Numbered from the stretch's first letter, positions 8,106 through 61,700 are shown. The stretch is DNA of 64,000 nucleotides from Lytechinus variegatus (GCF_018143015.1 NC_054741.1:72036687-72100686), one strand, 5' to 3'. Notes: a model not told the origin generated them from the letters alone. A program made the numbers and translations.

Positions 8106-8262
8106 CTAAAAGAACGCAACAGAATAATCAACTATTGATGGTTTGAGGTCAGTATACATGTATGCTTTTATGGTAAGATTTAGAAAATCATAGCAAACAT
8201 AAGGACATCGTTATTACAACCATTCTCTCCACTCCTTCCTCTAAAAAAACAAAAGCAAACTT

Positions 8263-39733: not shown

Positions 39734-39959
39734 GATGGATTGTTGTTGATTACTGGAAGAATCCAATCACAGGGTAATGCAGATGACAGGGTTTCTCACA
39801 TGGTTTAATGCAGCTGCGATAATACTACCATCATACATGTATGTACATGTTCCTGGAAATGGCAATAAAAAATTAATTAATTAGTAGTACTCTTAAATTA
39901 ATAGCAACATTTATACAGTAATTACATAAACATTAGGCCTACAAAGATTGTCAGTGGAA

Positions 39960-40918: not shown

Positions 40919-41678
40919 GATACCAGGGGCGGTATTCTGAACATTGTCTTTTCTCCATATTTTATCTTTTCTCAGAGATATGACAAAATTGGTATTCTGG
41001 TGGAGGTCATAAATTTTGTCACAAAAAATGTCATAAATTTTGTCATATCTCTTTGGTGCGCACCAAAAATATGCGGCTTTAGATGCGCGTAATCCTTTTA
41101 TACAAGCAAAAGATATGACAAAAGTTATGACAGGGGGGTAGCAGTCATAAATTTTGTCATATCTTTTATTACCAAATATCCCGATACCCTGCCGACTGAA
41201 TGTCAAGCATACATGTATAATGATATTATTTAGATTAGATTGTGGTATTAGTTCATCCATGACAATTTTCAAAATTATTTTTTCATGCTACAATTAGTTA
41301 GGCCATACATAATAATTCCTTCTGTTTTTCTGTTTTCCTTCTTTTTCTACTTCTCCTCTACATCCTTCACAGCTCCCTGTCTCTCTTTGTAATTAAGCGC
41401 ATCAATATTTGTGTAGTTGCGCAGTGCCAGCAACTGTATTTGGGATACGCCCTACCTGACACGGGGCCTTCCTATTGGCTAGAAGGGCTCCCACTGGGAA
41501 CTAACGATGATTTTGATTGGATTGCTTCCGAAAAGATGGGCGGGAACTTTAAGAGATATGACAGGGAAAAGACAATGTTCAGAATAGTGATTTGTGACAA
41601 TCATAGCGGTGTCACATCTCGGAGAGAAATGACAAAATGTATGACAAAAGTTATGACAGAGTTCTAGAATACCACCCC
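40919..41678. mobile_element. MITE family 3, copy 1. Termini ataccaggggcggtattctgaac ... gttctagaataccacccc. The interior is made of ATGACAAAA / TCATAAATTTTGTCA palindromic sub-repeats.
   Basis: The terminal inverted similarity and more than 10 ATGACAAAA-type motifs were seen directly. ORF-track entry 40916-41272 is an artefact. Confidence 0.65.
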
Positions 41679-42551
41679 AGATTTATGGATATTTCATATT
41701 TCCTTCCTATATTAAACCAAACTTTAGAGAAAAAGCAAAAGACTGTAGTGTAAAGACTGTTACACTACAGTGTAACAGTCTTTTAAATTAAAATTAAAAG
41801 ACTGTTAAATTAAAATCTTTTTCCCACTTATGAATTATGTTTGAAAAAAAAAAGAAATTCATTATCACACTTAAGTTAAGAAAAAAAAATGCCATACAAA
41901 CAAGACATACCCTTTCTTTGACATATTTTTTAAAAATTTGATTTACCCTAAAGCCTTGCAAAATCATACTTTTCATTGGAAAAAAGATACAGAGCTTTAC
42001 ATGTAGATACTATTGATTTTACAAGTCTTAAAATGTCTTCAACTTCTTTTAGCATGTGCTGTACAAAAATTTGTGGGGGAAAAGAAATAAAGAAATTTAG
42101 AGCTATTTAGAAATACATGTAGATCTAAATATTGTAGCCTATCTCTTGCAAAGAATAGCAAGTGTTGTACAATGTAGATCCAATTTCTTCTTCTCTTCCT
42201 CCCCCTCCTCCTTATTCTTCTTCAACTTCTACTTTAGAAATAGATTCTACAGTACTTCAGTAGAATCTTTCTACAATGTAATAATCTGCTATTGTTGGAT
42301 CCCAACGACTAATAGTTTTATGGTAAGGGGTCCTAAGGCTGAATGAAGCTATGGACCACTAAATCCATTGTCTCTAAAATCAAAAGCTACATAAAAAATT
42401 GTTTAAACAATAGAATTGGAATTGATGAAACAATCAAATACATCAGAAAAAAAGCACACTTGTATTTTTATTTTGTCATACAAAGTACAAAAGGAATAAT
42501 TTTCATACGTAAAAAAGACCCCCGTACATACATGTACATGTATACAATACT

Positions 42552-43144
42552 TAAAGGGGAATGAAACCTTTGGAACAAATAGGTTTGTGTAGAAACAGAA
42601 AAATCAAAGAATAAGAATAAAGAAAGTTTGAGAAAAATCGGACAATAAATGAGAAAGTTATGAGCATTTAAATATTGCAATCACTAATGCTATGGAGATC
42701 CTCACATTGGCAATGCGACAAGGATGTGTGATGTCACTGATGAACAACTTTCCTTTTGGTGGACTATAAAATACCCTCAAAATGTCTCTTTTTGCTTTTT
42801 CTTATGATGATACAAACTCTTTATCCATGATGTATTTTAAAAAAATATGTATTACATGCCCTCATGTAGAAAGAACACATGATCTATGGATAGATGTGAT
42901 AAAAGAGGCAATTCAAGTGAAATATATACTAAAGTAATGGGGAGAGTTGTTCATCAGTGACATCACACATCCTTGTCGCATTGCCAATGGGAGGATCTCC
43001 ATAGCATTAGTGATTGCAATATTTAAATGCTCATAACTTTCTCATTTATTGTCTGATTTTTCTCAAACTTTTGTTGATCTGTTTCTTTGATTTTTCTGTT
43101 TTCACACAAGCTATCTTGTTCCAATGGTTTCATTCTCCTTTAAG
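42552..43144. mobile_element. Foldback MITE family 2, copy 2
   Basis: Near-identical to the 8.3-kb copy over its whole length. ORF-track entry 42468-42680 is an artefact. Confidence 0.75.
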
Positions 43145-45242
43145 TTGAAAAAGAGCATGTAATTTATATCAGAAAAACAAAGAAATACATTAGAAAATCG
43201 TTCTGTACTCCATTGACTTCACATTATAAGACAATGACCACAATATGCGCGACTTAAACTGGAATAACTTAATAATTTCTAGATGAAAATTAGAGTTCTT
43301 GGTATCATTTGAAAGGTCTTTTTAAGAGCTTTCAAATGATACCAAATTTATTCATATTTGATGAATCTCATTTTTTTGTCACACATACCTACTTTAAGTT
43401 TAAGAGTAAGCAAATCAGTTCAAATATTCAAATTGTTACTTATTGCACTCATTCAATACGGACACTTGCGTCGCGTAACATTGGGGAAGAACAATATGAA
43501 ACAAGATGGCGGCGTAAACATCGGGCAAGTTTCTTCCTTCTTTGCAAGATATTTGTTCTTATTTTTTGATGAATTCTTGTTTAAAAATAAAATCCATAGC
43601 GTAGAAATGTCAGAAATGAAGTTGTACCCCATGTACATGATTTAGGGCTAGATCTTTTAGAAAGAAAGTAGAAATCTCGGGGGCAAAAGTTTCAGGTTTT
43701 TTGGTGGTATGAATAGAAAGGAACTTAGAAGGAAGACCTGGCTTCGTTGAGTAACCTTACGTTAGTAAATGATTTTTACTCTCCAGAAGCCTCCTGGCTA
43801 GATAAACCAAGGAAGTGAAGACTGAAGTTAATCACTGTTTTTGTCCTTTAAAGTTTAAGTTTATTTTTCCCGTTTTGGTGCATTTCAGGCCAAAACAAAA
43901 GTCCAGTTCTTTTCAGATTTTTATGAAATAAATATTTTAAAGCAAAAATCGATGAGCCCCGTCTGGGGAATTTGCTTTGTTAAAACTTAATCCCCTAATG
44001 GTGGCTGCACGATCGCGAGCCGTATGACTTCGAGGAGAAAAAAAAATGTAAAAAAAAAAATCCTCGAAACAGACAGAAAACACTGCTACCACCCTGCCTG
44101 TGGGGAATCTAGAGGTAGGACTATGGTATGCCAATGTTGTACAGAGCACACACTTTAAAAAATCATTAAAATATCACTTTTGTGACCAAAATTACTAATT
44201 TCCATACAGTTGCAATTTATTTTTCATTAGTAACTTGGGAATAATTTTGTATTCACCAGAGCGCTCAAAAACTTGAATTTTGGGCATATTTTTGGGTACG
44301 CCCTCTATTGGTGGAAAGTAATATGGCAAGAAAATTTTCATTTTTTAATCTCTATTTTTAATTAAGAAAAAAATGATTTAAAGAATCAAATTTAAATAAG
44401 AGCCAAGTTATATGAATAATAGGTGTAATGGAAACTGTCAGTGTAAAAAAATCAAGCATTTTCCCCAAAGAAAAAGAGAAAATAAGCCAAACATTGCCAC
44501 CCTTATTTTGCCACACATGGAGATATAACTGAGAACAAGGTTATATTATAACCTTGTTCATTGAATGAGTGCGGCTGCCAGCTGTCTACCCCAATCACAT
44601 GTAACACAGAAACATAAGACTCGGACTACACACGAGAGGACATTAAATCAAGTCTAGTTTTTATCACACGAAAACCACACTAAATATCAAGAATTAATCT
44701 TTAAAGGGTATTACCTGTAAGCAGTCACTCCAGAACTTAAGTTTTGCTTGTGATTTACAGGATAAAATCCGTATCATATACAGATTCACATGAAAATTCA
44801 CGTAGATATATTGTTCCCTAGCATCCGTAAACAACGGCGTCGTCACTTATTTTGAAAATCTTATGAACGCGTACGTTCACACTCGTATACGTACGGCTAC
44901 ATAACTGTATACTGCATGCACTGTCATTGCCTATTTTGGAGGACAGGCAGAGTACTGTGTACAAGATACTTTTTATATGGCCTCCTTTTTGTGTGTGTGG
45001 GGGCGGGGCTAGGGAATATGTTTTTTTTAATGACTTTTTATTGTGCAGAATCGTTTTGCTGACTATACATCGATTCCCTATAAACCCACACCTGGGAACC
45101 TAAATCGGAGGTAGGTGCCCGGGGGCCGGGGGGGGGGGCATATTCCGCAAAATTTTGACATGCAGTTTACCTACCTTTTTCAACTGAACTCAAATTCAAA
45201 TGAAATACTTATATTTCCAAGATACCCGGGTGGGGGGGGGGT

Positions 45243-45765
45243 GGCCACTTCCATTCACGAGTGGATACCATGCGCGACCATGGGGTCTCGATCGAAAAGC
45301 ACCCTAAACACGTAATTTCCATCTGAAAATGCACCCCTTAATAAGTCTGAAACCCTACCCTTAACAAGAATTGGAAACAAAACGATACTTAAGCTTGGCA
45401 AATATTCCCTGAAATGAACCCCTAAACAAGTACAGGAATGTTTTATTGTTACGGGTCCTTCGGTCGTCTGCTTTACCTTATTTGGTTTAGTACGACCCCA
45501 CCTTCTACACCTCGCGCAAATCGGACTCTAAACACGAAGTGTTGGGGCAAAAAGGACATCCTTTATAAAACATTTTAATTAATTCGACCCTAAACACGGA
45601 ATGTTCCTAGCGAAATAGATACCCTTTTTTCATTATTCTTGTGTTTTTGACACCCTTATCACGTTACGTACGTAACGTGCCCTATCGTGAAAAAGACATC
45701 CTTTTTACGTGTTTTTTTGGTCGCGCATGGTATCCACTCGTCAATGTAAGTGGCCCCTCTGGGCC
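45243..45765 (-). mobile_element. MITE family 1, copy 1 (~525 bp, inverted orientation). TIR ggccacttccattcacgagtggataccatgcgcgacca; it carries an internal 20-bp perfect palindrome cacgttacgtacgtaacgtg.
   Basis: Terminal inverted repeats are visible. It is co-linear with the copies at 48.8 kb and 58.3 kb and is flanked by poly-G runs. Confidence 0.8.
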
Positions 45766-48093
45766 AAGATATAAGGATGGAAGTAGGCCAATGGTCTAAA
45801 GAAAGCCGATAAGAATGATAAACGTATGCATGTGGCAATTTTACCCTGTCCAATGAACAAAAATCGAAGAATGATTAAAAACACAGATAAACTAAACGAA
45901 AGAACCCAGATATAACCACTAAACCTAATTATTGATCAGTAACTATTTCCGAACTTTCTTTCCTTGAACTTTGAAAAACCTATATACAGGCCTATAAAAA
46001 ACCGTTTCAAACCCAAGCTTGTCCATGAGACTAGCCTCTCATGTGGGTGTGGTTTAGATGATAATTTTAGAAGGTCTACACCAGCTAGGGAAATGTCACA
46101 TCAGAGGAGGATCAATTATCATAGGGAGGGGCGTGGCGGGGCCGGGGGGGGATCAACCACATTTCATCCGATCGGCTGATTGAATAATATTTGAATTCTA
46201 TGTTATAAAAATTATGTGAGCTATCTGAAAGACAACCCTATAGGCCTATACTCGCGTGGCAAGATAAAGCATATCGAAAGCAAGAGGAAATGAGTTGAGT
46301 ATATATGCAAAATGAAATTATACGATATGGATTGACAAACAGTCAATTCAGTCCTGACAGTGAACATTCAAAAAAGGCAATTTAGGCCTTTACAAACCGT
46401 TTCAGATAGAATCAATCGACACTCAGTCTCCGAAAGTCATGTACAAGTATAATACCCTTTCTCTCATTACTGCGGATGTCATGATATTTATCATATATGA
46501 ATTATATAAAAATATAAGACCATGCATGAGATGGCGCTCGGACAAAAATGACTCTGCGGGGAGTAAGAGTTTTCTCAAACCTGAATGTCAGTGAGCCAAT
46601 CGCCTCTATAGGCCTCAATCTCTTTTTGCCATCGGTTGTTTTTACGAATAATCTAAAGGTAACCTCCAGATAGAGGGATGAGAAGAGGGATGGGAAGGCT
46701 CCGGGGCGGAGGGGGGGGGAGGGGTCACTCTCAGGGGCGGATCCAGAATTTTCCAAAGGGGGGCAAATTTTTCGGAGGAAAATTTTGAAAAGCAAAAAAA
46801 TAAATAAAATTAAAAATTAAACAACATATCAAGGATAATTTGTACCGAAAAAAAAGGAAAAAAAAGAAAAAAAATATTTTCAACCACAAATAAAGGATAT
46901 TAAAAAAAACAGGTTTCAATCACAAATTAAGGATACTTCATACCGAAAAAAGGCCTTCAATTTCAAAAGAGCAGTTTTGATGGCATTTTAACATTACAAA
47001 TTTTAATTTTGCTTCTCAAAGGGGGGGGGGGGGGGAACGTGTCAGCTGTGTCCCCCCTGGATCTGCTAGTGGTTACTCTCTTTATGCGGCCTGCTCAGAA
47101 CTGAGGGTAAAAATATCCATTGGCGGATCTTCTTGAGGTGCATAAAAACTGGGGGAAACAAAAAAGAACGAAGGAAGGAAGGAAGAACTTATATAAAGAA
47201 AGATAGATTGATAGAAAGAAAGAAAGAAATATAGAAAGAAAGAAAATATCCCCATTAACATAAATACAAGAAAAAAAATATCCCCATTCCCCCATGATCG
47301 ACACCCATATATTCACTGTCATTTTTAATGTCGGTACCGATAAAGAATATGGGTTTATGACCCGGAAGGAAGGCCTACAATGAAAATAAATAAATAAATA
47401 AAATCCGCCCTATTTCTAGAACAGGGCGGTGCTACAGGTGGGGGCAGGAGTGCAACTTTTTTTTCAAGTACGTGAAAAAGGGGAAAACAAAATACTGAAG
47501 AGAAGTAGAGAGGTATTGGTCGTGTAACTCTTTATTACCCCTGTAATTTAATTGAGATAAATAAAGATCGTCTTCCCCCCCCCCCGTCAATAGGGTGGTG
47601 CCGCCGCCCCTGTTCTATTTAGCTTCAAAGTTCCCTTCTCATTCTCTATCCTTCAAAATAAATACAATAACGTCAACAAAGGGACTCGTGATCCCTCTCT
47701 CAATTATTATTTTTCTATTTCATTTTCACTTTTTCTTACTACCCTGAGCTGAGAAAAAACATTAGATTCATGCCCCGTGCACCCCACCCACTGACCTGCA
47801 TGCCCCCATGCCCACATCATGCACTTCTAGAGCGCTAGCGCGCGTGGAGCTTTTGCAGATCGTTACCATAGCTTTGTGACCTTTGACCCAAACAATAGTT
47901 TTTCACCGGTACCCCGTTTCTCTCCGAACGAAAGCAAGGCTTGAAGGAATAAGACGATTGTAATTGTTTACTACTTCATCATTTCACTCTATAAATCTAT
48001 GATTCTAAACTGATACTGTCTATGACATTTACAGTTTTGGTGAAAATCGGATGAAATTCCTCTGTCGGTGTATTAATTTGAACTTTTGAAGCA

Positions 48094-48100
48094 TATATAA
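48094..48100 (+). promoter_or_regulatory. TATA box (tatataa) about 120 bp upstream of the MORN3 ATG; the CpG-rich segment 47800-47950 lies further upstream
   Basis: The motif is seen in sequence at the expected distance from the first coding exon. Confidence 0.4.
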
Positions 48101-48219
48101 GAGACACTAAAAAATTCAGCTGCTTTTATCGGATTGCTGAACATCTTACCAGCCGAGCCCGCTGGCGTGGGTATCGTACAGTAAACCCTGTAGATCTAGC
48201 TGAACTCAACCAGGGAAAG

Positions 48220-48364
48220 ATGCCGTATCAGAAAGTACCAAAGAAAACGCAACCTCTGTGGCATGATTGGGACTATAAGGCACAGAAAAAAGGTGTCCGG
48301 AGTACAGTGTATTCTGTAAATGGAGATGAATATACAGGAGAATGGCTTGACAACAAAAAACATG
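48220..48364 (+). CDS. MORN3: MORN repeat-containing protein 3, exon 1 (MPYQKVPKKTQPLWHDWDYKAQKKGVRSTVYSVNGDEYTGEWLDNKKHG); donor GTGAGA
   Basis: Close residue-level match to the vertebrate MORN3 N-terminus (MPVSKCPKK..LWKGWDRKAQ..GLRS.VY.VNGD.Y.GEW.DN.KHG). The ATG agrees with the ORF track. Donor gt follows HG in phase 1. Confidence 0.88.
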
Positions 48365-48784
48365 GTGAGACAATAAAACTTTTAAAGGGAAAAATAATAG
48401 GTAGACCAAAACTATTATTAAGAGTAAAAAAAGTCAAAGGTTTTATGATTCTAGTACAAGTTGTAGTAAAAAAATTAGTAATGTTGGGGGGGGGGGGGGG
48501 CTACATGTAGATTGGACAAATGTGATACTGATAGGCTCAGGATTGATTGTTTGCTCACAACTTCAGTTATGATCAACTTGTAAATTGCAAAGAATTTAAA
48601 AACGAACAAAACCAAGTCTTATGTTACTGTTACAGATTTTTTTTCCAAATAGTACGGTAATTGATCTTCTGTGCTGCACTTGTTATTTCATTTTCAGACT
48701 ACCCTTTTAAAATTAAATGATATATACTTGTAAAGTTGTATTTCTCGTATTAAATGGCAGAGTGAATTATACCAAAGCCTGGGG

Positions 48785-49341
48785 GGCCATTGACGAGTGG
48801 ATACCATGCGCGACCATAAAAACATGTAAAAACGATGTCTTTTTTTTCAAGATAGGGCATGTTACGTATGTAACGTGATAAGGGTGTCAAAAACACAGAA
48901 ATAATAAAAAAAAAGGGTATCTATTTTGCTAGGAAAGCTACGTGTTTAGGGTCAAATTTACGGGGATGATGAAACAAAATGAAAAAATGTTTTGTAAAGG
49001 ATGTCCATTTTGCCCCAACACTACGTGTTTAGAGCCTGTTTAAATTCTGATTTGTACGAGCTGTGGAAGGTGGGGGCGTACTAAACCAAATGATGTGTAA
49101 AGATAAAACCGACGACCAACGGACCTGTGACATAATAAAATATCGCAGTACTTGTTTAAGGGTTCATTTCAGAGAATATTTGCCAAGAGTATCGTTTTGT
49201 TTCCAATACTTGTTAAAGGGTAGGGTTTCACATGCAATACTTGTTAAGGGGTCCATTTTCATAATATGGAAAATATGTGTTTAGGGTGCTTTTCGAGACC
49301 CCATGGTCGCGCATGGTATCCACTCGTCAATGGAAGTGGCC
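48785..49341 (+). mobile_element. MITE family 1, copy 2, in MORN3 intron 1 (left TIR slightly truncated)
   Basis: The termini ccattgacgagtggataccatgcgcgaccat ... atggtcgcgcatggtatccactcgtcaatggaagtggcc are reverse complements of each other. ORF-track entry 49063-49284 is an artefact inside the element. Confidence 0.8.
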
Positions 49342-50365
49342 CCCCGGGTACCAAAGCCACTCCCATGGCAGTATTAAATGCCCTGTTAACTGACTTCAAT
49401 GGCAATTCCCAGCCCCAGGTGATTGGCCTGAGAATACTGAGGACTAACCCCAAATTGTCACCCCAAATGCAATCAATAATAGCATCTTCTTTGGCTTGCT
49501 TCATCAAAAGCACCAATGCCAACTTCTAGCACCAGTAGCAAATAGTACCTAGCAGCTCATCAACCTTGTGACAAACACTGAGAGAATACCGGTACTGAGG
49601 AGTTCATTTGGGTGTGGAAACGACCCACAACGAATAACAACAACAAATGATTGGCCTAGTAAATTTTTGATGCCATTTTGAATTCCCCATCTTGTGCTGA
49701 CAAGAAACTTGCCCTCTGTTATATAATAGAAAAAGTGGCCTTGCCCTAAAACTGCCCTAATGCAATGGGAATGGAGCTTAGATGATGCTTCCATTATACA
49801 TTGTTCTTTTATGTTTTGGAGTAATCAGTATAGCACACCATACATGTACATGTATTAAAAGTCTTTTGTCAAATGAAATGCATAAATTCACAAGTATGGT
49901 TGGGAGCAGATTATAAAAATAATTTTTTTCTCTAGATTTCCCCCCAAGTCGTGCATTAAATAATTGCAAGTTGAAGTAGAACATGTGCTTTGTAACTGCC
50001 TGATAATTTTTTTATTAATGAAATATTGATCGCAAGTTCTCCAAATTACTGTCTTGTCCGCTTAAGCAACCTGTTTGGACATACAACAACTGGTATAAAA
50101 TAAATATTAGAGGAAATGTAATACTAGACTTCTTTTAATACAAAAAAGAACAACAAACATTGCCTATGCATGATTAAACCATGAGTATCTTCATGCTAAA
50201 GATCTCTGGTATTTGAAACATGGGAGAAATGTACAGTTCTTCAACCATCCTAACTTGGAGCTATTTATTTAATCCAAGACTAAAATGTGTGACAGATTAG
50301 TTCTCTTTTACCCCTGAAACCATACATCTGCATTTATTGTAATTAAATTGCTTCTTTCATTACAG

Positions 50366-50520
50366 GCAAAGGAACGTACAAGTGGAAGAAGTCAGGAGCT
50401 TTATATGATGGAGATTGGAAGTTTGGAAAGAGGAATGGGTTTGGAACATTAAGTACCCCCATGGAGGGAGGAGGCTACAAAAGAATCTACTCTGGTGGCT
50501 GGAAAAATGATAAACGACAT
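50366..50520 (+). CDS. MORN3: MORN3 exon 2 (KGTYKWKKSGALYDGDWKFGKRNGFGTLSTPMEGGGYKRIYSGGWKNDKRH)
   Basis: Acceptor ttacag and donor GTGAGT. MORN motifs Y-x-G-x-W are present. The exon aligns with the MORN3 stretch KGTQVWKKKGAIYEGDWKFGKRDGYGTLS. Phase is consistent with exon 1. Confidence 0.88.
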
Positions 50521-50897
50521 GTGAGTGCTCTAGGAACAGAAAACCATGAATGTTAACTAGATTCTTGAGTCAAATATTTCCTTGAATGTTTTTCTTATGA
50601 AATTCCTTTAAAACTTTAAGATTGAAAGACTGGAGAGGAAATTTAGGAATTGTGGCATATAGCTGAATAGATTATAGATGAGTGAGAGTTGATCCAAAAT
50701 GACACCTAGAGCTACATGTATTTCAACAGCTGCATATTAAAGATGAAATTGCAGAAGTTGGTTAAGTTACATGGAGTGAAACATTAATACCCAGAAATAT
50801 AGGAAAATTGTTTTTCTTATCTAAATCTTGGAAGATGAATGAAACTAATATCACAATCTAATCTAAATAATATGATTGAATGCTTGACATTTAGTCA

Positions 50898-51139
50898 GCA
50901 GGGAATCGGTACTAAAAGATATGACAAAATTTCACTACTGCTACAAGTGCTAGACCGTGTCATAAATTTTGTCATATCATTTGCTTGAATATTGTGATTA
51001 TGTGCAATTAAGAAACGCATATTTTTGGTGCACGCTAAAGAGAAGATTTTTATGACAAAAGTTATGACATCCACCAAATTAATGATTCTGTCTTATCTCT
51101 GAGAAAAGAGAAAATGATCAAAATACTGCCCCAGGGTAT
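50898..51139. mobile_element. MITE family 3, copy 2 (shorter), in MORN3 intron 2
   Basis: Shares its termini and the ATGACAAAA sub-repeats with the 41-kb copy. Confidence 0.6.
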
Positions 51140-51763
51140 GTTGGACTCTTTGAAATTTCTATCTTAAAAACATACTGTATAAAATTCTGGACAGTCATTG
51201 CTCCTTGCATCATGGTAATTAAGCAAACCATGCCTCTGAGAATTAATCATTATCCTACATCACAAGATCCTTCTCAACGCAAAAATTACATCTTGCAAAA
51301 CCAAGAAAGGAGTGTAAAATAAAACAGCTGTTCTCTTATACATCATCAAAAATTGTCAACATGTTATCTGTATGTATTAAATGCTCTGCCTCAATTCCTA
51401 TTTTAAAGCGAAATGTATGTAAAATCACAGTGAGCTTAATGTTCTACTGTATGTGTTTTATACACACAGTATATACCCCCTCTATTTTTCCTCTTTTTTG
51501 TATTGTGAATATTTGATGTTTGATTTGATTGTGTGCATGTATGTGATTGTATGATGTTTGAAATATGAATTGTTTTTATAACAAGGCTCCCTTGTAAAGC
51601 AGGCCTCTGGGGCTTGGAAAAGCTTTTTATGAGGAAAAGATTTATAACTGATAAAATTAAATCAACTTGTGTAAATATTTCTCAAAGGCAAAAATGAAAT
51701 GCAAAAAATCAAGTTTTACATGCAAACTTAATTTCTAATATTTCTTCTTCCAATTTTGTTCAG

Positions 51764-51923
51764 GGTTATGGAACAAATTTTTACTCAGCAGAAGAGTACT
51801 ATGAAGGAGAATGGTATGCTGATAAGCGCAGTGGGTGGGGTAGGATGTACTTTGCTGATGGAAGCACATATGAAGGAGAGTGGTACAATGATGAGAGGAA
51901 TGGACAGGGCATGCTCAGATTAG
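51764..51923 (+). CDS. MORN3: MORN3 exon 3 (GYGTNFYSAEEYYEGEWYADKRSGWGRMYFADGSTYEGEWYNDERNGQGMLRL)
   Basis: Acceptor ttgttcag and donor GTAGGT. It matches human GYGIQFFGPKEYYEGDW..SGWGRMYYSNGDIYEGQWENDKPNGEGMLRL. Confidence 0.88.
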
Positions 51924-54900
51924 GTAGGTTATTCTAATTGAACTATATATTAGTTTATGAATTATGGTTTCATTTCTTTGGTGCTTATTTGCTTAAAGTG
52001 ATGTGAATATCGACAAGTGTAATTTCCCAATTTGTTTATGTACAGTACTTTATCAGTATTTGTTTTGGAAAGTTATATTTTATTAATTCATCACATTGTT
52101 ACTTTAGTGATGTTAAAACATTATTTTTCATTTAAATCTGTCTATAATTTCTTTATGGCTGGGTAATAATATGTTGGAAAGTGCTTTAAGCTGTATTGGG
52201 AAGAGCGCTATAAACTAGCTATCATTATTATTTCTTTTATGCATCATGTCCTTATTTGTTGTTGATATGTATGATGTAAAATTTGCGTGAATTATTTGTT
52301 ATGATGGTCTAACATTGAATGGTCTTGGGAAGTCCCCCCTATCAATCAACCAAAACCAAAATTAGAAAGAGAGGAAAAGGAAAAGAATGATACTGATGTT
52401 TCAACCTCTAATTGTTCTTCTTTTCATCGTCAGAATATTTTCAGACATATGCCCCTGTAACATTTTTCTCCACTCTCTTCTCCCCTCATTTCTATTTTCT
52501 TGTCAGACTATTACTATTAATCTATTGCTGCTCATTGACACTGTGGGAAACTAAGATCACTCTGTATGCTTCAAATCTTTATTGCCATTGTTCTCTGCTT
52601 GTTTGTCTCTGTCTCATACTGTGATCTTGCTTGTGTAAGAATGTCTGCCCAATAGAATTGATTTAGCTGTACACCTTTGACATTGAAGACAGCCTGAATG
52701 TAACTGAGCTTGGTCCTGTGAGGCAAAACATGGCATGATTTCACAAACATTCCATTTCATACCAGTAATATTTCAAATTGACATAAGGATTTTTTTTTAA
52801 GCCAGTATTTTCATATTTCCCAACTTGAAATTTGAATGTAGTATCATTTTGGAAATTTGTAGTTGTTTGTTCATACAAAGTCATTTAATATTCTTTATAT
52901 AATGGTCCATAAAAACAGTCAGCCCCATTCAGTTTTTATTTTGAAGATATTGCTATATTACAAAATTCTATCAGGGTAAAACATTGTATTGTCTGTGCAG
53001 GGGCTAGTTTCCTATTTTTCATTTATTAAAATTTATTTGTGTACTGTTTGTTTTGAACCAAATGGTAACTTATATTTGTTTAATTCAGGGGGCTACTTCC
53101 TTCTTCAGCCCCCATTGTGTTTTTTTTTCAATCTTTTTTTAGTTGCTGTATAAGAGGTCAATTTCTTATAAATGAATTTCCGAACCTCTGCCAGCCTGAA
53201 GTGTCCTTTAAATTATTTGGAGGATGTGGAAAGTAGGCGCAGTAAACCAGGATGTCTAGGTCAGGGATAGAGAGAGGGTGGCTGGCAACAAAATAATTCA
53301 TTCAACAGAATAAACATGTTTACACTTTTCCACATTGCTTGGTCATTACTGCTTTTACAATGATAACAACCCTTCACACACTAAGAACAGGGAGTTGGAA
53401 GCTCCTGCTAAGAACAACAAATCCTTAACTTGGGCAGTCCTTGTTAACCATGATTTCAACTTTTATGTTTCATGAAAACATTTATTTGTTGTTGTGGTAT
53501 TTTACTTCTGAGATATAGTGAATACAAAAAATATTGTTACAAGAGCCTACATTTATCAAGCCCTCTATTTTTCAGCAATTTATCTTGTAGTAGATGGGAA
53601 TCATTTACATTATTGTAAATAATCCTGTTTATTGGCCACTAATATAATTGATTTGATACAGACTATGACATCAGTCATTTAATTATAAGCAGCATATGTT
53701 GCTACATGCATTCTGATATTAAGTGTGCTTTGGCATATATATGGAAAAATGGTTAGGATTTTTAATTCATTTATTCCATTATGAAAGATTTCTGCCTAAA
53801 TGAGACAGAAAATCGTGTACAACTCTTGAACGCACACACAGGTCACGGAGTGACCCTGAGTGCAAACAGCTGACTGTGTTACAACTTAGGGGTGATACAT
53901 TTTCACAATAGGGGTGATCAAACTCACTGGAGGGACTTTAATTCACTTATAACAAAGAAATGTGTACTACAGTACTCCTGTTGAATGCTCTGATGAAAAT
54001 TATATGAGTTTCACATTCATTTGAACGGGAGGACAAGATTATTGTATATATCGAGTGCATTATGCATAAATCATACTACCATTGCGACCCCTGCCTGGCC
54101 GATGGTTCAGGCATGACGATCCTGAGTGACGTCACCGATAGAGACCTCAAATGCCAGGAGAGCCTATTCGACAACTAACTTCATCTAAAAAACACGTATT
54201 GAAGATAACATCCAATGGGGAATGGCTTTCATTTTCATGAAATATACATTCCATTCTTCAATAAATCTTTCACCCCGTCGTTAACTGCCCATTCATTCTC
54301 GAGCAATGGGGGAATGAATACAGAGTGTCTCAAAGTTTGTGTGAAAAAAGGTGCATTTTCCATAGAACTTCTGCCAAAAAGCAATGCGTAAGGGAAAGAT
54401 TAGCCCCAAAACACGAATAGATGAGTTAATCAAATGGGATGAATCATGAAAATCAGTGAAATATAGTTTCTCCTGTACTCATTACTGAATACCCCGACTT
54501 GATACGATTAATTTTTCCCCCTCTCCATCAACTTTTAAGAAAAAGGGTGCATATTTTCATAAAAATATCATGTGTTATATCGACGGACGCCCGTGCGTAC
54601 GAGCAGGAGGAAGTCAAATGTCTCGTATTTTTCATAATGAGCAACAATGGGCATAATGTAAATGACTGACTGATATTAAGATAGGCTTTTACAGTTTATC
54701 GATCTAATGATAGTCTTTAAGATATCAGAGTGTATGTTTCAAAGTAGTCAATATTACATGTAGTAACTTTGGTTGTCATTCAGAACCAAAATCACCATTC
54801 CAGCTACTCTTGTAAATTGTACAAACAGGAATAGGCCTACATACATAACTGTCCTACACATATCAAGATGTCTACAATGAAAAAAAAATGTCATGATAGC

Positions 54901-55305
54901 ATCAATAATTCTTGAGGTAGGCAGAATTTCTTGTATTGCAGCTGCTTTGCCCATCGAGCTTTTGCAGACATGGTATGTGACAAACCTCAATGTCTGTCAC
55001 CTTTTTTATGGAAGGTTATGACTTATATTTAGTCTAAAACTTCCCAAGTATTGCTGGTTACATATTAAGAAAAGATATGGTATATTGTACTTCTCAGTTT
55101 TCTCAGTATTTCTTTTTTTTTCAATAAAGTTAATAATGCTATTGAAAAAGGTGAATGATTAGGATCAACACTGAACATTTATGTCATTAATTGTCAGCAA
55201 TGGAGGAGATCTTCCATTTCAATCTTATATGTACACCACTCTTGTTCTGAAGGAAATCTAGTGGTGATTAATCTGGCAAGTCTGTTCTTGGTTTTTCTCA
55301 TTCAG

Positions 55306-55490
55306 CGACAGAGAATCGTTACGAGGGCATGTGGAAGGATCACAAGAAGAATGGACCAGGGAAGTTCTTTTACTTGGACAAAGGTCAGGTCTATGAGGGT
55401 GTCTGGGTCAATGACATTGCCAAGTGTGGCACCATGGTAGACTTTGGCAGAGAGGGAGCTCCAGACCCAACTCAGTATCCCATTCCAGAG
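55306..55490 (+). CDS. MORN3: MORN3 exon 4 (ATENRYEGMWKDHKKNGPGKFFYLDKGQVYEGVWVNDIAKCGTMVDFGREGAPDPTQYPIPE)
   Basis: Acceptor tttttctcattcag. The frame is anchored by the ORF-track ATG at 55329. Donor GTATGT. Near-identical to the human MORN3 C-terminal region (NRYEGCWERGMKNGAGRFFHLDHGQLFEGFWVDNMAKCGTMIDFGRDEAPEPTQFPIPE). Confidence 0.88.
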
Positions 55491-55893
55491 GTATGTCTTA
55501 CACTATATGTGTCACATCTGTAATTGTGTTAATAATGTAGAAGCAAACAAAAGTAATAGGCAACAAAGGCTTACACAACACACACCTGTCCTTTTGACAC
55601 TCTTCTCTCTTCTTCTTCCTCCTCCTTTCCTTCTGAAAAAAAATTTTGGCTGCCCCCTGCTAACACTGCCCCTGGATTATGATAATTATGATCATGGCCA
55701 TTAAACGAATAATTATATAACAGGGTAATGATATTTTAGTGGTTTGGTAGATAGGGCATATTTTGCAAATTAGATAGAGTATATATTGTTTATCAAATCA
55801 AGATAGAATTTTCTTTGAGCACTCATATGATCTGTAGAATAATTTCAATCATGATGGCACTCGTATATCTCTTCCTATTCTGTTTCATTTCAG

Positions 55894-55962
55894 ATCAAAC
55901 TCGCAGATGCAAATGGCGTACTCCAAGAAGCAGAAGATATGTTTTTACCCGACAGTGATTGA
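55894..55962 (+). CDS. MORN3: MORN3 terminal exon (IKLADANGVLQEAEDMFLPDSD, then TGA)
   Basis: Acceptor ttcatttcag. It matches the human C-terminus VKILDPDGVLAEALAMFRK. Coordinates may be off by 1. Confidence 0.82.
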   Translation: MKLADANGVLQEAEDMFLPDSD

Positions 55963-55982
55963 GGATGTAATTACAGTATCAA

Positions 55983-55988
55983 AATAAA
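55983..55988 (+). terminator. AATAAA polyadenylation signal about 20 nt after the MORN3 stop
   Basis: Canonical hexamer downstream of the TGA. Confidence 0.5.
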
Positions 55989-57103
55989 CATTCTAATATA
56001 CAGCCAACTGGTATTGTAATTAAACAACTGAGAACTGGATGATTCTTTAAACTAGCATATTTAAATTTTGTTCTGAGAGGAAATGTCCAAGCATTTAAAA
56101 ATTGATGAATTATGAACCAAGAGAGATATCAATTATAGCTCTTCTTTTGTTTACAAAACCTGGATTCTGAACATAATATAGTTGTTCTGAACATTCTAGC
56201 ATAATGAAATAAAATTAATGAAAGTTCATTGTTGAGTTGTTACAGACTGCCATTAGATTAAAATATAACCTATTGTGTAAAGTCTGATAAGTTGAAAACA
56301 CATTTTCCCCAAAATACATCATATTGAAATATGTGTGATATGAATTTTATTCATGGACTAATAGCACTTCAAACTTATTTGTGGGGGTAAATTTACTATT
56401 TATAAAGAGCACTATTTATATATTACATAACTTACTGAATAGCAATTCTTCAGAAATAGGGGCCCGACAACTTCAAATCCATACACAAATTGCATATGTA
56501 ATTGTACACTGCTAATTTATGAGGAATGCTATTCATGAGGACCATTGTGAAGAATTGCTATTCCTAAATGAATAATGGGCAGTGTTGTAAATACCTCAAA
56601 ATTACAATATTCTTTAATAATCTGTTTATATTGTATTTGTAAATATGTGTACATTATATTTTGTAAGAAAACTGCAATAAAAAAGGAAAACATCAATACA
56701 ATGATTGCTCTGAAATTTTTATTGAAGTAGTTTAAATCCATGATGCTTGTTATTCTGTGAGAAGAGTGTTTTTTAGAAGAAAATATTGTAGTATTTTTCA
56801 TCCAGACTGCTAGCAATTTTCCATGTCATAAACATATTCTAAATCACAGTGATTAAGAATACTTCCATACAGGCTTGGAATAGTGACCAGTAAGATCTAT
56901 ATCCTGAGGATTCACTTTTAAATTGTTTTAGATTTAATTCTAAATCCAGATTTCTACTGGTCACCTTCCATGGCTGGTCTAGATCTATTCAAATCTATGA
57001 AATGTATCGTGTATTGATAACAAAAAGAGGAAATGTGCTAACAATCTTTTAAAATGCTGCATTTTTATTACATTGAACAAGGAATGAAAGTTTGTTGATG
57101 TTT

Positions 57104-57839
57104 AACCCTATCTAGGCCGGGGGGCCTCGGAGGCCCCCTCAACAAATGGTGCGATATTTTCGCCGTGCGAAATTTTTTGACCGCGCTGCTCGCTGACTTT
57201 TTACTTTCAAGTCTTACGCAACTTTTGAGACCAATTTCGCTTCAGATGGGTACATGGTTACGAAATCATGCAACATTATGTAAGTGCATGTCAGACCGAA
57301 AATTGCTCAAAAACGTGATTTTATATACAAAGTCAATGCAAATTGTGTTTTCAACCAAAATTTATAATTGTATGATTATTTTTAGTTTTGCTAGTCTAAA
57401 TATATTCATTTTATGCTTTTTATGATCACAGAAGAGTCCCCAACAGATTTCATTGAAAAAAACAATGAAAAACAAAAGTAAAAAAACAAAGAAATACATA
57501 AGAAATTCCAAAAAACAATATAATACATAAGAAAATTATTTAATATCACGATTTTTGTCATGTACACTTGCTAAGGACACCACAAAGAGTTTCTATACCA
57601 AAAATTAGAACATTTGGAGCTTTATTTAGGGAGTTAGAGGAAAAAGTATGACTTCGCATACTAATTACGCATAAATTAGCATAATCGCTTCATAGCGATT
57701 CGCATGAAATAAACTACTGTACAATCTTGTAGATTATGTCCCAGGCAACCCGCGTGCCAATTTTCGGCGCGATCGCGCGGTCGACGGCCGAGATCTTAGG
57801 GGGGGGGGAACTCCAAAATACCCTGGCCTAGATAGGGTT
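57104..57839. mobile_element. TIR element (~735 bp) with 15-bp TIRs aaccctatctaggcc and CpG-rich subterminal inverted segments
   Basis: aaccctatctaggcc at 57104 pairs with ggcctagatagggtt at 57825. There is a G10 run at 57801. Confidence 0.65.
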
Positions 57840-58251
57840 AATAAACAAGCTTCCAAATTGATGTTTATATTCTAAGGACTAGTAGGGACAAGTCTTCTAT
57901 TTACGAAGTTATTCATGATTAATTTGTGGTTTCTCATACCATACGTTTTCTTAGAACCACAATAGCACATTACATAGGCAGGGGCCGCGGAATGGTTTTC
58001 AAAGGGGGGGGGGGCTGACCATGCCAAAAATCACAATCATATGGTCATTTACACGTTTTTGGAAAGGGGGGGCTTCAGCCCCCCCCCCCCTACCCGGTTC
58101 CACGGCCCCTGATAGGTACTAATAAGAGAGAAAAAGCAAAGTTGAACATTTTGTATAAAAGAAACATTTGTCTGCACCGCTGATTTTCTGCAGTTATTTA
58201 AAACTCTCAAGTATGATGAAAACGACCAGACCTCATTACCCGGGGGGGGGG

Positions 58252-58777
58252 GGGCCACTTACATTGGCGAGTGGATACCATGCGCGACCAAAAAAACACG
58301 TAAAAAGGATGTCTTTTTCACGATAGGGCACGTTACGTACGTAACGTGATAAGGGTGTCAAAAACACAAAAATAATGAAAAAAGGGTATCTATTTCGCTA
58401 GGAAAATTACGTGCTTAGGGTCGAATATGTGGGGATGATAAAACAAAATTAAAATGTTTTATAAAGGATGTCCTTTTTGCCCCAAAACTTCGTGTTTAGA
58501 GTCCGATTTGAGAAGTTGGGGTCGTACTAAACCAAATAAGGTAAAGCCGACGACCGAAGGACCCGTAACAATAAAACATTCCTGTACTTGTTTAGGGGTT
58601 CATTTCAAGGAATATTTGCCAAGAGTATCGTTTTGTTTCCAATGCTTGTTAAGTGTAGGTTTTCACACGCCAATACTTGTTAAGGGGTGCATTTTCAGAA
58701 AATGGAAATTACTTGTTTAGGGTGCTTTTCGATACCCCATGGTCGCGCATGGTATCCACTCGTGAATGGAAGTGGCC
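58252..58777 (+). mobile_element. MITE family 1, copy 3
   Basis: Same TIRs and internal sub-repeats (gtgtttagggt-type ~45-bp units). ORF-track entry 58454-58720 is an artefact inside it. Confidence 0.8.
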
Positions 58778-61700
58778 CCGGCCCCGGGCCTCATTATAAA
58801 GGTCATACAATTTATCATGAAAAGGAACCGTCTCCCACCAACAAAATAATGTGAACTTGGCATTTTAAACACTTTGCATTCACAAAATGATGTGTAACTA
58901 ACTAAATAATCGGTGCAAAGAGCGCCGAAGTGCGAGCTGAAAATAGGAACATATCCCGGGGAACATAAAAGGAATGGTTGTCAGGAATTCGTGAAGATGA
59001 TAGTCCTGAATGCGAGCGTGGAGTGCGGGCTGAAATCATGAAAATGATTTTTGCATGTATATTGATATAAAGAACTGGATACTTAAAGCACGATTAATCC
59101 ACTTGAACAGAATCTCCCCCATATCTTCCGTTGACAGGGGGCCGGGGCCGATTTGTAAATTTCATTTTAAGCACATTTTGTATCCAGCCGTCAATTATGA
59201 TCTTCTGTCCCTATAGAGCATAATTTGTACTCGAACCGCACGAGCTGCATCCCCCCCTCCGTCTAGGCGCAAACTTAACTTAAAATGAGTAACTTTGATA
59301 GACCTATTATCTCATCTTGCGTTAGCCACTTCAGTCCCCGCCCCTAGCACAAGCATGTTGCGGATTCACTTACTTAAAGGTCCGGGGTACACCGGGATGG
59401 AAACATTATATCAAAATAAAAAGAGTAAATTTCACAGAGCAAAGGCTGAATATGTAATCAAAATCTAACGAAATAACGAAATTATTGAATTTTAAGTTCA
59501 GCAATATTTTGTGAAAACGGTATATCACGTCGTTGTGAAAATTCATCAGTATTGCTGATAATTACATATCCACACTTTCATTTTTTTCTTATGTTGTTGA
59601 AATAATAATTACCTCCTATTTTCACACATGTGTAAATGATTTGCCTCCCCGATATAATAAAATAAGTTGGAGCTGTTAATATATTGTGATAATTTTTTTT
59701 TATATCCAATTTAGTTCTTGGAGGACAAAATTTGAATAAATATAATTTCATATAAAATACAAATGAAAGAACAAGTGATATATGAATTAAGGTTATTATA
59801 TATTGTTGTTGCCGTTACCTTTCCTGTTTTTGTGTAACCATCTTCTGTTCGTTTGATTTGCAATCATTTAATAATCCTTATTTGATTTTATAATTGATAT
59901 AATACGAACACTTAAAAATATCAATGCTGACTGAAATAAATGGTGATGATAATGATGATGATAATACAAAATGTAAAGAAAACCATATGCCTTTATTAGT
60001 ATTTCATTAGGCTTTCCACAAATTAATTATTGTCTGGGCGGATAAAACTTGAATTGGCGGACAAAAAACAAAACAAAAAGATCAATTAAGGATATGATAT
60101 CAATTTGCTCATTGAATATTCATGAAACATATATTTCACCAAAACGCAATGTCATTACCTTGTTATTCTTTGTTCGATTTTGATCAAATTTTCAGTGTTC
60201 TGTTTGTCTGATTTTTCTTTATTGGTTCAAATATTATTTTCAGCCTGTATCAAGTACCCGATTTAATTGCTTTTAATGGCCTTGGGAATTTCGTTTATGC
60301 TGATAGCCCTTGGAAAGCTAAAACAATATGTGAAATGCTCAATTGGGATAGTAGCAGCAACCCTTATAAAAAAATTGAATGGTATACCATTGACTACCAT
60401 TTATTATACACCATTGATATACCATTGGTATATAACGGTTTATGATAGGGGCCGGGGCAGAATAATTTCTCTTGGGGTATGAGGGGGAGAGGGCAGAAGC
60501 GGACAAGAAAGCATTTCATTTTTTTAGTTTTCGAAATTTTGGGGGTTGGGCAATGCTTTTGACAGAGGGGGTCAGAAGCCCTCTTGCCCCTTCCCTTGGT
60601 GGCGGACGCTACCGAGTGCATTGTGTAGGCTATTTGGGTGCAAAGCACGGAGGGGGAGGGGAATATAAATGGGCAGGCCAATGCATAAGTGATTTATCAA
60701 ATTCACTTGTCAAATCTTCAAAAAAATTTTTGCATGCATGCCTATTTCTTTGTTTTCTTTATTTTGTTTTAAAAGAGAATTAAGTGACCCTTTTTGTGGG
60801 GGGGGGGGGGGGCTATCCTCGGCACCAGCTCTGATGCAGTTACTCGTCACGAACAAAATACAACAGAACGAGTGGGTCTGCTCAACTTGTACCTCCTCTC
60901 GCTACTGAGCGACCCGTCGACGTTCTATTTCCGGTAATTCTAAAGGCTATCAAAAGAAGATGTAGAAATGTAAAATCTCACTCTGAGCTAGGTCTCAATA
61001 TACCCGGGCTCAAACTACTTCACCTTCTCTCTGAGTGCCTGATTATGAAAATAATTTCAAGTTTATAGGCTCACATGTTCTTATAAAACCCCAATATTAA
61101 AAAAAATCTCTTAAAAGAGCCCCCTCCCAGTATTTCACATCCATTTTTAGTATTCACTTCAAATTTGGTATGACTTGCAAGTGGGCGTGCATCCATTACA
61201 TGTATCTATTTCCGGGGTTATACTTTTTCCCTTTCATTTGTAAGAAGAAAACATACATTTTACCTTTCATTGTTCGTTCATCACATATTTATGAGACTAG
61301 ACGTAAAAGAAAAAAAAACGATTCATACCACAAAATTTCAATCAAATATCAAATTGCTTTAGTTCAAGATATTTATTGGAGTGGAAAAGACCTTTGACCG
61401 ATCTCAATATTTTTTTTCATGAGATCATTCGCGAAGTGCTTCGGCGCGTGCATGATATGCACCAATGGTATACGTGTACTATTCTTACACACCTCTTCCA
61501 TGACAAAATCTGGCTGTACCATCAATCCGGCATATGAGGAAACCCACTGCAAATCGTGACAAATTAATAACATTTCCGTTTTTCCTCTATCATTCAGAAG
61601 AGTATATAATTCTAATGGGTAAGTCTCCTACGAGAATTCGTGTCTGTTTTGCCTGAATTTTGCGTACACTTAATATAATACCGACTTAAGATAGGCCTTT

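What the first reader, a model, noticed from the sequence alone, without database searches (positions are those of the whole stretch)
45243..58777. Three-copy MITE family with 38-bp TIRs, an internal 20-bp perfect palindrome and poly-G flanks
The copies at 45243-45765 (inverted), 48785-49341 and 58252-58777 share the TIR ggccacttccattcacgagtggataccatgcgcgacca. They also share internal ~45-bp sub-repeats and the perfect palindrome cacgttacgtacgtaacgtg. Every copy abuts a G/C homopolymer run (cccgggggggggggggccactt...aagtggccccccggg). That may be part of the TIR or an insertion-site preference. Three copies in 64 kb implies a very abundant family. One copy sits in MORN3 intron 1.
Basis: seen in the sequence. 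Interest (0 to 1): 0.5.

Follow-up and report, generated by a model that had tools for sequence, protein, structure and literature searches.

The report
Ordinary MITE family, 8-bp target duplications

Summary
Three copies of one 540-570 bp element lie at 45225-45763 (inverted), 48778-49348 and 58239-58788.

Each copy is bracketed by a perfect 8-bp direct repeat that differs between copies: CCAAGATA, TACCAAAG and CCTCATTA. These target-site duplications lie outside the G runs.

Every end therefore reads TSD | CCC | G-rich tract (6-17 nt, variable) | CCACTT(A/C)CATT(G/C)RC | GAGTGGATACCATGCGCGACCA. The last 22 nt are identical in all six arms. The poly-G is an unstable homopolymer inside a 39-56 bp terminal inverted repeat. 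It is neither a flank nor a target preference.

The interior has no coding capacity and no Rfam match. It carries 4-6 same-orientation copies of a 12-nt motif (YKTGNTWAGRGK). The 20-bp palindrome is perfect in copies 1 and 3. In intronic copy 2 it carries two C-to-T changes at CpG sites.

This is a non-autonomous cut-and-paste DNA transposon. The superfamily is unassigned. The 8-bp TSD fits hAT, P, Merlin, MuDR and others, but the CCC...GGG termini do not fit the hAT consensus.

No autonomous partner and no further copies could be found, because the collections I could search lack the source genome. Copy number is untested.

G runs are in excess across the whole window (34 versus about 7 expected). 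Interest is low.

The parts
45217..45224 (.). Copy 1 left target-site duplication CCAAGATA
   Evidence: Perfect 8-bp match to 45764-45771. It cannot be extended on either side.
45225..45763 (-). Copy 1, a full element of 539 bp, inverted relative to copies 2 and 3. It lies about 2.5 kb upstream of the MORN3 ATG.
   Evidence: blastn and MAFFT; termini CCCGGG...CTCTGGG.
45225..45280 (+). Copy 1 TIR arm (B end), 56 nt: CCC + GGGTGGGGGGGGGGTGG + CCACTTCCATTCAC + invariant 22-mer
45718..45763 (-). Copy 1 TIR arm (A end), 46 nt. The G tract has decayed to AGAGGGG.
45660..45679 (.). Perfect 20-bp palindrome CACGTTACGTACGTAACGTG in copy 1
45764..45771 (.). Copy 1 right TSD CCAAGATA
48770..48777 (.). 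Copy 2 left TSD TACCAAAG
   Evidence: A 10-bp match, TACCAAAGCC, is present. The first 8 bp are taken as the TSD, which gives the same CCY...GGG termini as the other copies.
48778..49348 (+). Copy 2, a full element of 571 bp, in the first coding intron of MORN3. It is the most diverged copy.
48778..48816 (+). Copy 2 TIR arm (A end), 39 nt: CCT + GGGGGG + CCA, then a deletion of about 6 bp, then TTGAC + the invariant 22-mer
48858..48877 (.). Degenerate palindrome CATGTTACGTATGTAACGTG in copy 2, with two C-to-T changes at CpG sites
49304..49348 (-). Copy 2 TIR arm (B end), 45 nt, with a G6 tract
49349..49356 (.). Copy 2 right TSD TACCAAAG
58231..58238 (.). Copy 3 left TSD CCTCATTA
   Evidence: Perfect 8-bp match, not extendable.
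58239..58788 (+). Copy 3, a full element of 550 bp, about 2.3 kb downstream of the MORN3 stop codon
58239..58290 (+). Copy 3 TIR arm (A end), 52 nt, with a G13 tract
58329..58348 (.). Perfect 20-bp palindrome in copy 3
58345..58723 (+). Span holding six same-orientation copies of the motif YKTGNTWAGRGK in copy 3, starting at 58345, 58410, 58491, 58587, 58676 and 58712
   Evidence: 16 matches in the window, all inside the three copies and all in the element's own orientation, against 1.0 expected. The pattern was derived from these copies.
58740..58788 (-). Copy 3 TIR arm (B end), 49 nt. The G tract is interrupted (GGGGCCGGGG).
58789..58796 (.). Copy 3 right TSD CCTCATTA
48220..55962 (+). Context: MORN3 coding region. 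Exons are 48220-48364, 50366-50520, 51764-51923, 55306-55490 and 55894-55962, giving 237 aa.
   Evidence: tblastn with echinoderm MORN3 proteins and a GT-AG splice model. The protein is 85% identical to Apostichopus japonicus MORN3.

Best explanation
This is a family of non-autonomous class II (cut-and-paste, TIR) DNA transposons, that is, MITEs, in an echinoderm genome.

Each copy is an independent insertion. A transposase supplied in trans by an unseen autonomous element would bind the terminal inverted repeats. The most likely binding site is the 22-nt block GAGTGGATACCATGCGCGACCA, which is identical in all six arms. The transposase would cut at the CCC...GGG tips and integrate at target cuts staggered by 8 bp. 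Repair of those cuts produces the 8-bp duplications.

The G tract is a homopolymer inside the TIR, between the CCC tip and CCACTT. It changes length by replication slippage and decays by point mutation after insertion.

The interior is non-coding filler built from degenerate direct repeats of a TTACGTG/CTTGTTTAGGG-type motif. The 20-bp palindrome shares its TTACGT core with that motif, but its origin was not resolved.

Shown here: the copies, TIRs, TSDs, position of the G tract, lack of coding capacity and reiterated motif. Inferred: trans-mobilisation, which block the transposase binds, and slippage. The transposase superfamily is unknown.
For: Three copies lie at unrelated loci with different flanks.

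Each copy has a perfect TSD of exactly 8 bp. All three give the same termini, CCY GGG...CCC RGG. A chance 8-bp match at one fixed pair of boundaries has probability about 1.5e-5.

The TIR arms are 39-56 nt, and the inner 22 nt are identical in 6 of 6 arms. Folding copy 3 as single-stranded DNA pairs the two termini into one long stem (z = -7.8).

The G tract always lies between CCC and CCACTT. Its length differs between the two ends of the same copy: 17 versus 7 nt in copy 1 and 13 versus 10 nt in copy 3.

Nothing suggests coding or RNA function. The ORFs have no Pfam domain at E of 0.1 or better; the single listed match is at E = 0.69, far below threshold. A 92-aa element ORF had no relative among 5.8 billion proteins. 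There is no Rfam match.

The reiterated motif occurs 16 times, only inside the copies and always in the same orientation.

The copies are relatively young. Copies 1 and 3 are 96.7% identical by substitutions. Element CpG o/e is 0.95-1.23, against 0.47 for the window.
Against: No autonomous partner or DDE transposase ORF is present in the window. The only mobile-element proteins are a Crypton-like tyrosine-recombinase fragment and a non-LTR reverse transcriptase.

No empty site or excision footprint could be examined.

Three TSDs are too few to define a target preference.

The termini do not match the consensus I recall for the commonest 8-bp-TSD superfamily, hAT (YARNG), so the mobilising enzyme is unidentified.
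Confidence: 0.9

Rival explanations
1. The element is specifically a hAT-derived MITE, mobilised by a hAT transposase.
For: The TSD is exactly 8 bp in 3 of 3 copies. From my own knowledge, hAT is the commonest source of 8-bp-TSD MITEs in animals; one example is Mar in Drosophila (PMC3517528, listed).
Against: The termini are CCCGG or CCTGG, not the hAT YARNG (CAGNG or TAGNG) signature. The TIRs are 39-56 bp, whereas hAT TIRs are usually 10-25 bp. None of the three TSDs fits nTnnnnAn or nnnTAnnn in either orientation. The hAT consensus features are recalled from memory, and three sites is very few.
Confidence: 0.25
2. It belongs to another superfamily compatible with 8-bp TSDs (P, Merlin, MuDR/MULE, Zisupton or Novosib), or to a lineage not yet described.
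For: Merlin generates 8-bp TSDs and MuDR generates 4-10 bp TSDs (PMC10045372). Long TIRs are more typical of Merlin and MuDR than of hAT (my own knowledge). The CCC...GGG tips match none of the usual hAT termini.
Against: As I recall them, Merlin and MuDR termini begin with G or GG and P termini with CA. None begins with CCC. Nothing here gives positive evidence for any particular superfamily.
Confidence: 0.6
3. The poly-G runs are the insertion target: the element prefers to land in G/C homopolymers.
For: G/C runs are very common in this window, 34 of 6 nt or more against about 6.6 expected, so such targets would be plentiful.
Against: In all three copies the 8-bp TSD lies outside the G tract and contains no G run. 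The G tract is separated from the flank by the conserved CCC tip, and it is present on both ends in inverted orientation, as a TIR component should be.
Confidence: 0.03
4. The copies are exapted cis-regulatory or structural modules, or a hairpin small-RNA precursor, and not inert transposon copies. Candidate elements are the G-string, the ACGT-rich palindrome and the TTAGGG-like motifs.
For: The copies flank MORN3 and sit within it. G-strings are reported cis elements in sea-urchin promoters; this is from my own knowledge, and a G-string paper on the arylsulfatase 5' flank appears in the reference list seen. A transcript of the element would fold into a long hairpin.
Against: The palindrome and CpGs decay freely in the intronic copy. 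G-tract length is not conserved. There is no Rfam match. No expression or chromatin data are available.
Confidence: 0.05

Closest known systems
MITEs, that is, non-autonomous TIR (class II) DNA transposons with 8-bp TSDs, such as hAT-derived MITEs like Mar of Drosophila (PMC3517528)
   Same: Small size (about 550 bp), non-coding, terminal inverted repeats, 8-bp TSDs of variable sequence, several diverged copies in and near genes, and reiterated subterminal or internal motifs.
   Different: The termini are CCCGG/CCTGG, not YARNG. The TIR is long (39-56 bp) and contains an unstable G homopolymer. The internal motifs all point the same way, not inverted at the two ends.
piggyBac superfamily termini (5'-CC...GG-3', TTAA TSD; PMC10045372)
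   Same: The element begins with CCC and ends with GGG.
   Different: The TSD is 8 bp of variable sequence, not TTAA. A genuine piggyBac-type MITE with TTAA | CCCTATCTAGGCC lies nearby at 57106-57837 for contrast.
Merlin / IS1016-like transposons (8-bp TSD; PMC10045372)
   Same: The TSD is 8 bp, and the TIRs are comparatively long (TIR length from my own knowledge).
   Different: As I recall, Merlin and IS1016 termini begin with GG. Here the tip is CCC. No transposase is available for comparison.
Tandem-repeat-containing MITEs of marine invertebrates, such as the 'pearl' elements of bivalves (recalled from my own knowledge, not checked here)
   Same: A MITE body built from reiterated internal repeat units between TIRs.
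   Different: The repeats here are degenerate (60-76% identity) and irregularly spaced, and TRF finds no array. No sequence comparison was possible.
Sea-urchin 'G-strings', oligo(dG) tracts described as cis elements and factor-binding sites in sea-urchin promoters (my own knowledge; one such title is in the reference list seen)
   Same: Runs of 10-15 G near genes. The window holds 12 runs of 10 nt or more against 0 expected.
   Different: The runs here are parts of transposon termini. No regulatory role was tested.

Membership tests
MITE / non-autonomous class II TIR transposon | Terminal inverted repeats at both ends | tested here: met
   Arms of 39-56 nt, with an inner 22 nt identical in 6 of 6 arms.
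MITE / non-autonomous class II TIR transposon | Target-site duplication of fixed length flanking each copy | tested here: met
   Perfect 8-bp TSDs in 3 of 3 copies, each with a different sequence.
MITE / non-autonomous class II TIR transposon | Small size and no coding capacity | tested here: met
   539-571 bp. The ORFs have no Pfam domain at E of 0.1 or better, and a 92-aa element ORF has no homologue among 5.8 billion proteins.
MITE / non-autonomous class II TIR transposon | Multiple dispersed copies (high copy number) | tested here: inconclusive
   Three copies at unrelated sites in the window. The genome-wide count cannot be tested, and scans of metagenome, GTDB and viral contigs found no relatives.
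MITE / non-autonomous class II TIR transposon | An autonomous partner sharing the termini | not testable with these tools
   There is no DDE transposase ORF in the window, and the source genome is not in any searchable collection.
hAT superfamily | 8-bp TSD | tested here: met
hAT superfamily | Termini matching 5'-YARNG (consensus recalled from my own knowledge) | tested here: not met
   The six tips read CCCGG (four), CCTGG (one) and CCCAG (one).
hAT superfamily | TSD bias nTnnnnAn (Ac/hobo type) or nnnTAnnn (Buster type), recalled from my own knowledge | tested here: inconclusive
   None of CCAAGATA, TACCAAAG or CCTCATTA fits in either orientation, but there are only three sites.
piggyBac superfamily | TTAA target-site duplication | tested here: not met
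   The TSDs are 8 bp and are not TTAA. The defining feature is quoted in PMC10045372.
piggyBac superfamily | 5'-CC...GG-3' termini | tested here: met
   CCC or CCT at the left tip and GGG at the right tip in all copies.
Merlin / P / MuDR / Zisupton / Novosib | Match of terminal positions 1-11 to a classified family with the same TSD length (Repbase rule, PMC4455052) | not testable with these tools
   Repbase and Dfam are not available here. The rule is quoted.
Known RNA families (Rfam) | Covariance-model match | tested here: not met
   No match inside any copy at E of 1 or better over 44000-60000.

The most novel reading that the evidence does not exclude
The combination of piggyBac-like CCC...GGG tips, a TIR of about 50 bp and a strict 8-bp non-TTAA TSD could mark a cut-and-paste transposase lineage not yet catalogued.

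Because its TIRs carry G10-15 tracts, the family, together with other G-run-bearing MITEs in this window, could be a main vehicle that seeds 'G-string' motifs around echinoderm genes.
Probability: 0.08. Interest if true: 0.5.

Novelty: new member of a known kind. Interest (0 to 1): 0.15.

Why it matters
Its main value is for annotation. The three copies should be masked as one MITE family with corrected boundaries and an 8-bp TSD, and the G runs at their ends should not be read as target sites or regulatory elements without further evidence.

There are two smaller points.
- The family shows that part of the striking G-homopolymer excess of this region is carried by transposons.
- The contrast between the CpG-decayed intronic copy and the two CpG-intact intergenic copies fits gene-body methylation in this animal.

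If the termini turned out to belong to an uncatalogued transposase lineage, that would be of moderate interest to transposon specialists.

Tried and rejected
1. I looked for further copies or an autonomous partner. Exact TIR patterns of 23 and 19 nt were scanned in metagenome contigs and a 21-nt pattern in GTDB genomes and viral contigs. The only hits were 11 bacterial-looking contigs (GC 44-67%) that share just the 19-22 nt seed and nothing more. I rejected these as chance or unrelated.
2. I used the longest element ORF (92 aa) as bait, hoping to recover spurious 'proteins' called on other copies. No candidate was found.
3. I tried an exact look-up of the reconstructed 237-aa MORN3 to name the species. 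The species therefore remains 'an echinoderm', closest to a holothurian at 85%.
4. A literature search for the TIR and palindrome strings gave 0 papers. A search for suGF1 also gave 0. The Yuan & Wessler and Bao et al. classification papers are not held.
5. A tandem-repeat reading of the interior is rejected, because TRF finds nothing at score 30 or more.
6. An RNA-gene reading is rejected, because there is no Rfam match.
7. Poly-G as target site is rejected on the TSD positions.
8. Local hopping or clustering of the three copies is not significant (P about 0.12).
9. I checked whether other elements share the same tip. CCCGGGCCACTTC at 28447 and CCCGGGGGCCGGGG... at 45118 share only 13-14 nt and have no partner arm. 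I left them as unexplained coincidences.
Full report
**Observation**

Reading the three stretches, aligning them and running blastn of copy 3 against the whole window confirm one repeat family with exactly three members. Copy 1 is inverted relative to copies 2 and 3. No other fragment of the family occurs in the 64 kb.

Counting substitutions only, copies 1 and 3 are 96.7% identical. Copy 2 is about 90% identical to either. The lower blastn figures (83-88%) come from 6-13 indel events per pair.

The 21-mer GAGTGGATACCATGCGCGACC occurs six times, once in each arm. It occurs in none of 100 dinucleotide-preserving shuffles.

**True boundaries and the poly-G question**

I scanned all boundary combinations for flanking direct repeats. 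Each copy gives one clear answer:
- Copy 1: CCAAGATA at 45217-24 and 45764-71.
- Copy 2: TACCAAAG at 48770-77 and 49349-56. The match runs 10 bp, and the first 8 bp give termini consistent with the other copies.
- Copy 3: CCTCATTA at 58231-38 and 58789-96.

In copies 1 and 3 the repeat cannot be extended by a single base on either side. The target-site duplication is therefore 8 bp, and the elements are 45225-45763, 48778-49348 and 58239-58788.

Lined up on the invariant block, all six ends read TSD | CCC (CCT once) | G-rich tract | CCACTT(A/C)CATT(G/C)RC | GAGTGGATACCATGCGCGACCA.

The G-rich tract is 17, 7, 6, 6, 13 and 10 nt long in the six ends. It differs between the two ends of one copy, and it is interrupted by T, A or CC in three ends.

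They sit at a fixed position, inside the TSD. The poly-G is part of the terminal inverted repeat, which is 39-56 nt long, not 38. It is neither a flank nor a preferred target.

**Interior**

No ORF in any copy has a Pfam domain at E of 0.1 or better. A 92-aa element ORF finds no relative among 5.8 billion proteins. Rfam finds nothing inside the copies.

The body contains degenerate direct repeats of 27-37 nt (60-76% identity), mostly spaced 31-89 nt apart. TRF reports no array.

The common core is a 12-nt motif, YKTGNTWAGRGK, for example CGTGTTTAGGGT. It occurs 16 times in the window: six times each in copies 1 and 3 and four times in copy 2. It always lies in the element's own orientation and never outside the copies, against 1.0 expected. 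The pattern was derived from these copies, so the count shows reiteration, not independent significance.

The 20-bp palindrome shares its TTACGT core with this motif. That would fit a local inverted duplication of the motif's 5' part, but the alignment does not decide it. The palindrome is perfect in copies 1 and 3. In copy 2 it carries two C-to-T changes at CpG sites, so it is not maintained after insertion.

As single-stranded DNA, the element folds with its two termini paired into one long stem (z = -7.8). This is expected of any TIR element.

**What it is and how it works**

The features found are TIRs, fixed-length TSDs of differing sequence at unrelated loci, small size and no coding capacity. 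Together they define a non-autonomous cut-and-paste (class II) transposon, a MITE.

The mechanism below is inferred, not shown:
- A transposase from an autonomous relative binds the TIRs. The 22-nt block that is perfectly conserved in all six arms is the best candidate binding site. From the per-copy divergences, I estimate that about 4-5 substitutions would be expected over those 132 nt, and none is seen.
- The element is excised at the CCC/GGG tips.
- It is inserted at target cuts staggered by 8 bp.
- The homopolymer then changes length by slippage.

**Superfamily**

An 8-bp TSD is compatible with hAT, P, Merlin, MuDR, Zisupton and Novosib. Merlin (8 bp) and MuDR (4-10 bp) are stated in PMC10045372. 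The rest is from my own knowledge.

The termini do not fit the hAT YARNG signature, and the three TSDs show no hAT-type bias. The CC...GG tips recall piggyBac, but the TSD is not TTAA.

Repbase classifies non-autonomous elements by TSD length plus terminal positions 1-11 (PMC4455052). That comparison cannot be run here. The window contains no DDE transposase. It holds only a Crypton-like tyrosine-recombinase fragment and a non-LTR reverse transcriptase. The superfamily stays open.

**Context**

A 237-aa MORN3 gene model with canonical GT-AG introns spans 48220-55962. Its protein is:
- 85% identical to Apostichopus japonicus MORN3;
- 82-84% identical to the Acanthaster and Amphiura proteins;
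- 81% identical to a crinoid protein;
- about 75% identical to non-echinoderm proteins.

The host is therefore an echinoderm whose own proteins are not in the collection.

Copy 2 lies in the intron between coding exons 1 and 2. Copy 1 lies about 2.5 kb upstream of the ATG, and copy 3 about 2.3 kb downstream of the stop codon.

The 'very abundant' inference cannot be tested. Scans of metagenome, GTDB and viral contigs found nothing beyond chance 19-22-mers. The spacing of the three copies is not significantly clustered (P about 0.12).

**Wider pattern**

G/C homopolymers are in excess across the whole window. There are 34 runs of 6 nt or more against 6.6 expected under a first-order Markov model, and 12 runs of 10 nt or more against 0 expected.

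Only four of those runs belong to this family. Others sit in different repeats, including a piggyBac-type MITE with G runs just inside its TIRs. The poly-G feature is a property of this genome's repeats in general, not a peculiarity of this family.

**Verdict**

This is a real, correctly recognised but ordinary MITE family. The added facts are:
- the exact boundaries;
- the 8-bp TSD;
- the G tract lies inside the TIR;
- the palindrome is not conserved in all copies;
- the superfamily is unassigned.

Interest is low. The only route to novelty would be termini that belong to an uncatalogued transposase lineage, or a demonstrated role in spreading G-strings.

Noticed in passing
whole window (for example 33593-33605, 47021-47035, 48486-48500, 60798-60812): There is a strong excess of G/C homopolymers: 34 runs of 6 nt or more against about 6.6 expected under a first-order Markov model, and 12 runs of 10 nt or more against 0 expected. 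Only four of these belong to the MITE family studied here.
   Followed up: partly
window 5305-5342, 47021-47057, 58066-58090: Three 'G run - short loop - C run' structures: G10-N19-C9, G15-N16-C6 and G7-N6-C12. They could form hairpins, and their origin is unknown. They might be junctions or centres of other repeats.
   Followed up: no
window 57102-57841: A different, piggyBac-type MITE: TTAA | CCCTATCTAGGCC ... GGCCTAGATAGGG | TTAA, with the element at 57106-57837 (about 730 bp). G runs of 6 and 10 nt lie inside it, next to or close to the 13-bp TIRs.
   Followed up: partly
window 8258-8857 and 42548-43146: Two copies (95% identical, opposite orientation) of a roughly 600-bp element that is itself a long imperfect palindrome (76-80% self-complementary). 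This looks like a foldback-like MITE. Similar self-palindromic repeats lie at 811-996, 16744-17146 and 63322-63525.
   Followed up: no
window 45225-45763, 48778-49348, 58239-58788: The element is CpG-rich (o/e 0.95-1.23) in a CpG-poor window (o/e 0.47). The intronic copy 2 has 9 private CpG-to-TpG/CpA changes among 37 private substitutions, whereas the two intergenic copies have none among 7-8. This fits gene-body methylation, although subfamily differences could contribute.
   Followed up: partly
window 22085-23143 (+): Two adjacent ORFs (174 and 178 aa), interrupted by a stop codon, with a weak Phage_integrase match (E = 2.8e-4) and a tyrosine-recombinase-like C-terminus. This is probably a Crypton-type or Crypton-derived fragment.
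   Followed up: partly
window 37207-38431 (+): A fragmented non-LTR retrotransposon reverse transcriptase (RVT_1, E = 1e-22), broken by stops or frameshifts.
   Followed up: partly
window 28447-28459 and 45118-45138: Two short sequences resemble the MITE tip but have no partner arm. One is CCCGGGCCACTTC, the tip without its G tract. The other is CCCGGGGGCCGGGGGGGGGGG, which lies 85 bp upstream of copy 1 and resembles copy 3's right tip. They could be chance matches or relics of related elements.
   Followed up: partly
window 58410-58723 (and the equivalent positions in copies 1 and 2): The reiterated internal motif contains the hexamer TTAGGG, or the variants TTAAGGG and TTAGAG. To my knowledge TTAGGG is the telomeric repeat unit of deuterostomes. 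This is probably coincidental.
   Followed up: no
window 40959-41260 versus 50835-51115, and 62349-62577 versus 63587-63812: Two further inverted repeat pairs (73% and 84% identity) belong to other, unidentified interspersed families. One member of the first pair lies in a MORN3 intron.
   Followed up: no
window 19270-39766 (-): Minus-strand exons with weak SAM (29040-29267) and RA (21009-21341) domain matches, plus long serine-rich and acidic ORFs (24025-25209, 38969-39766). These suggest one or more large multi-exon genes upstream of MORN3.
   Followed up: no
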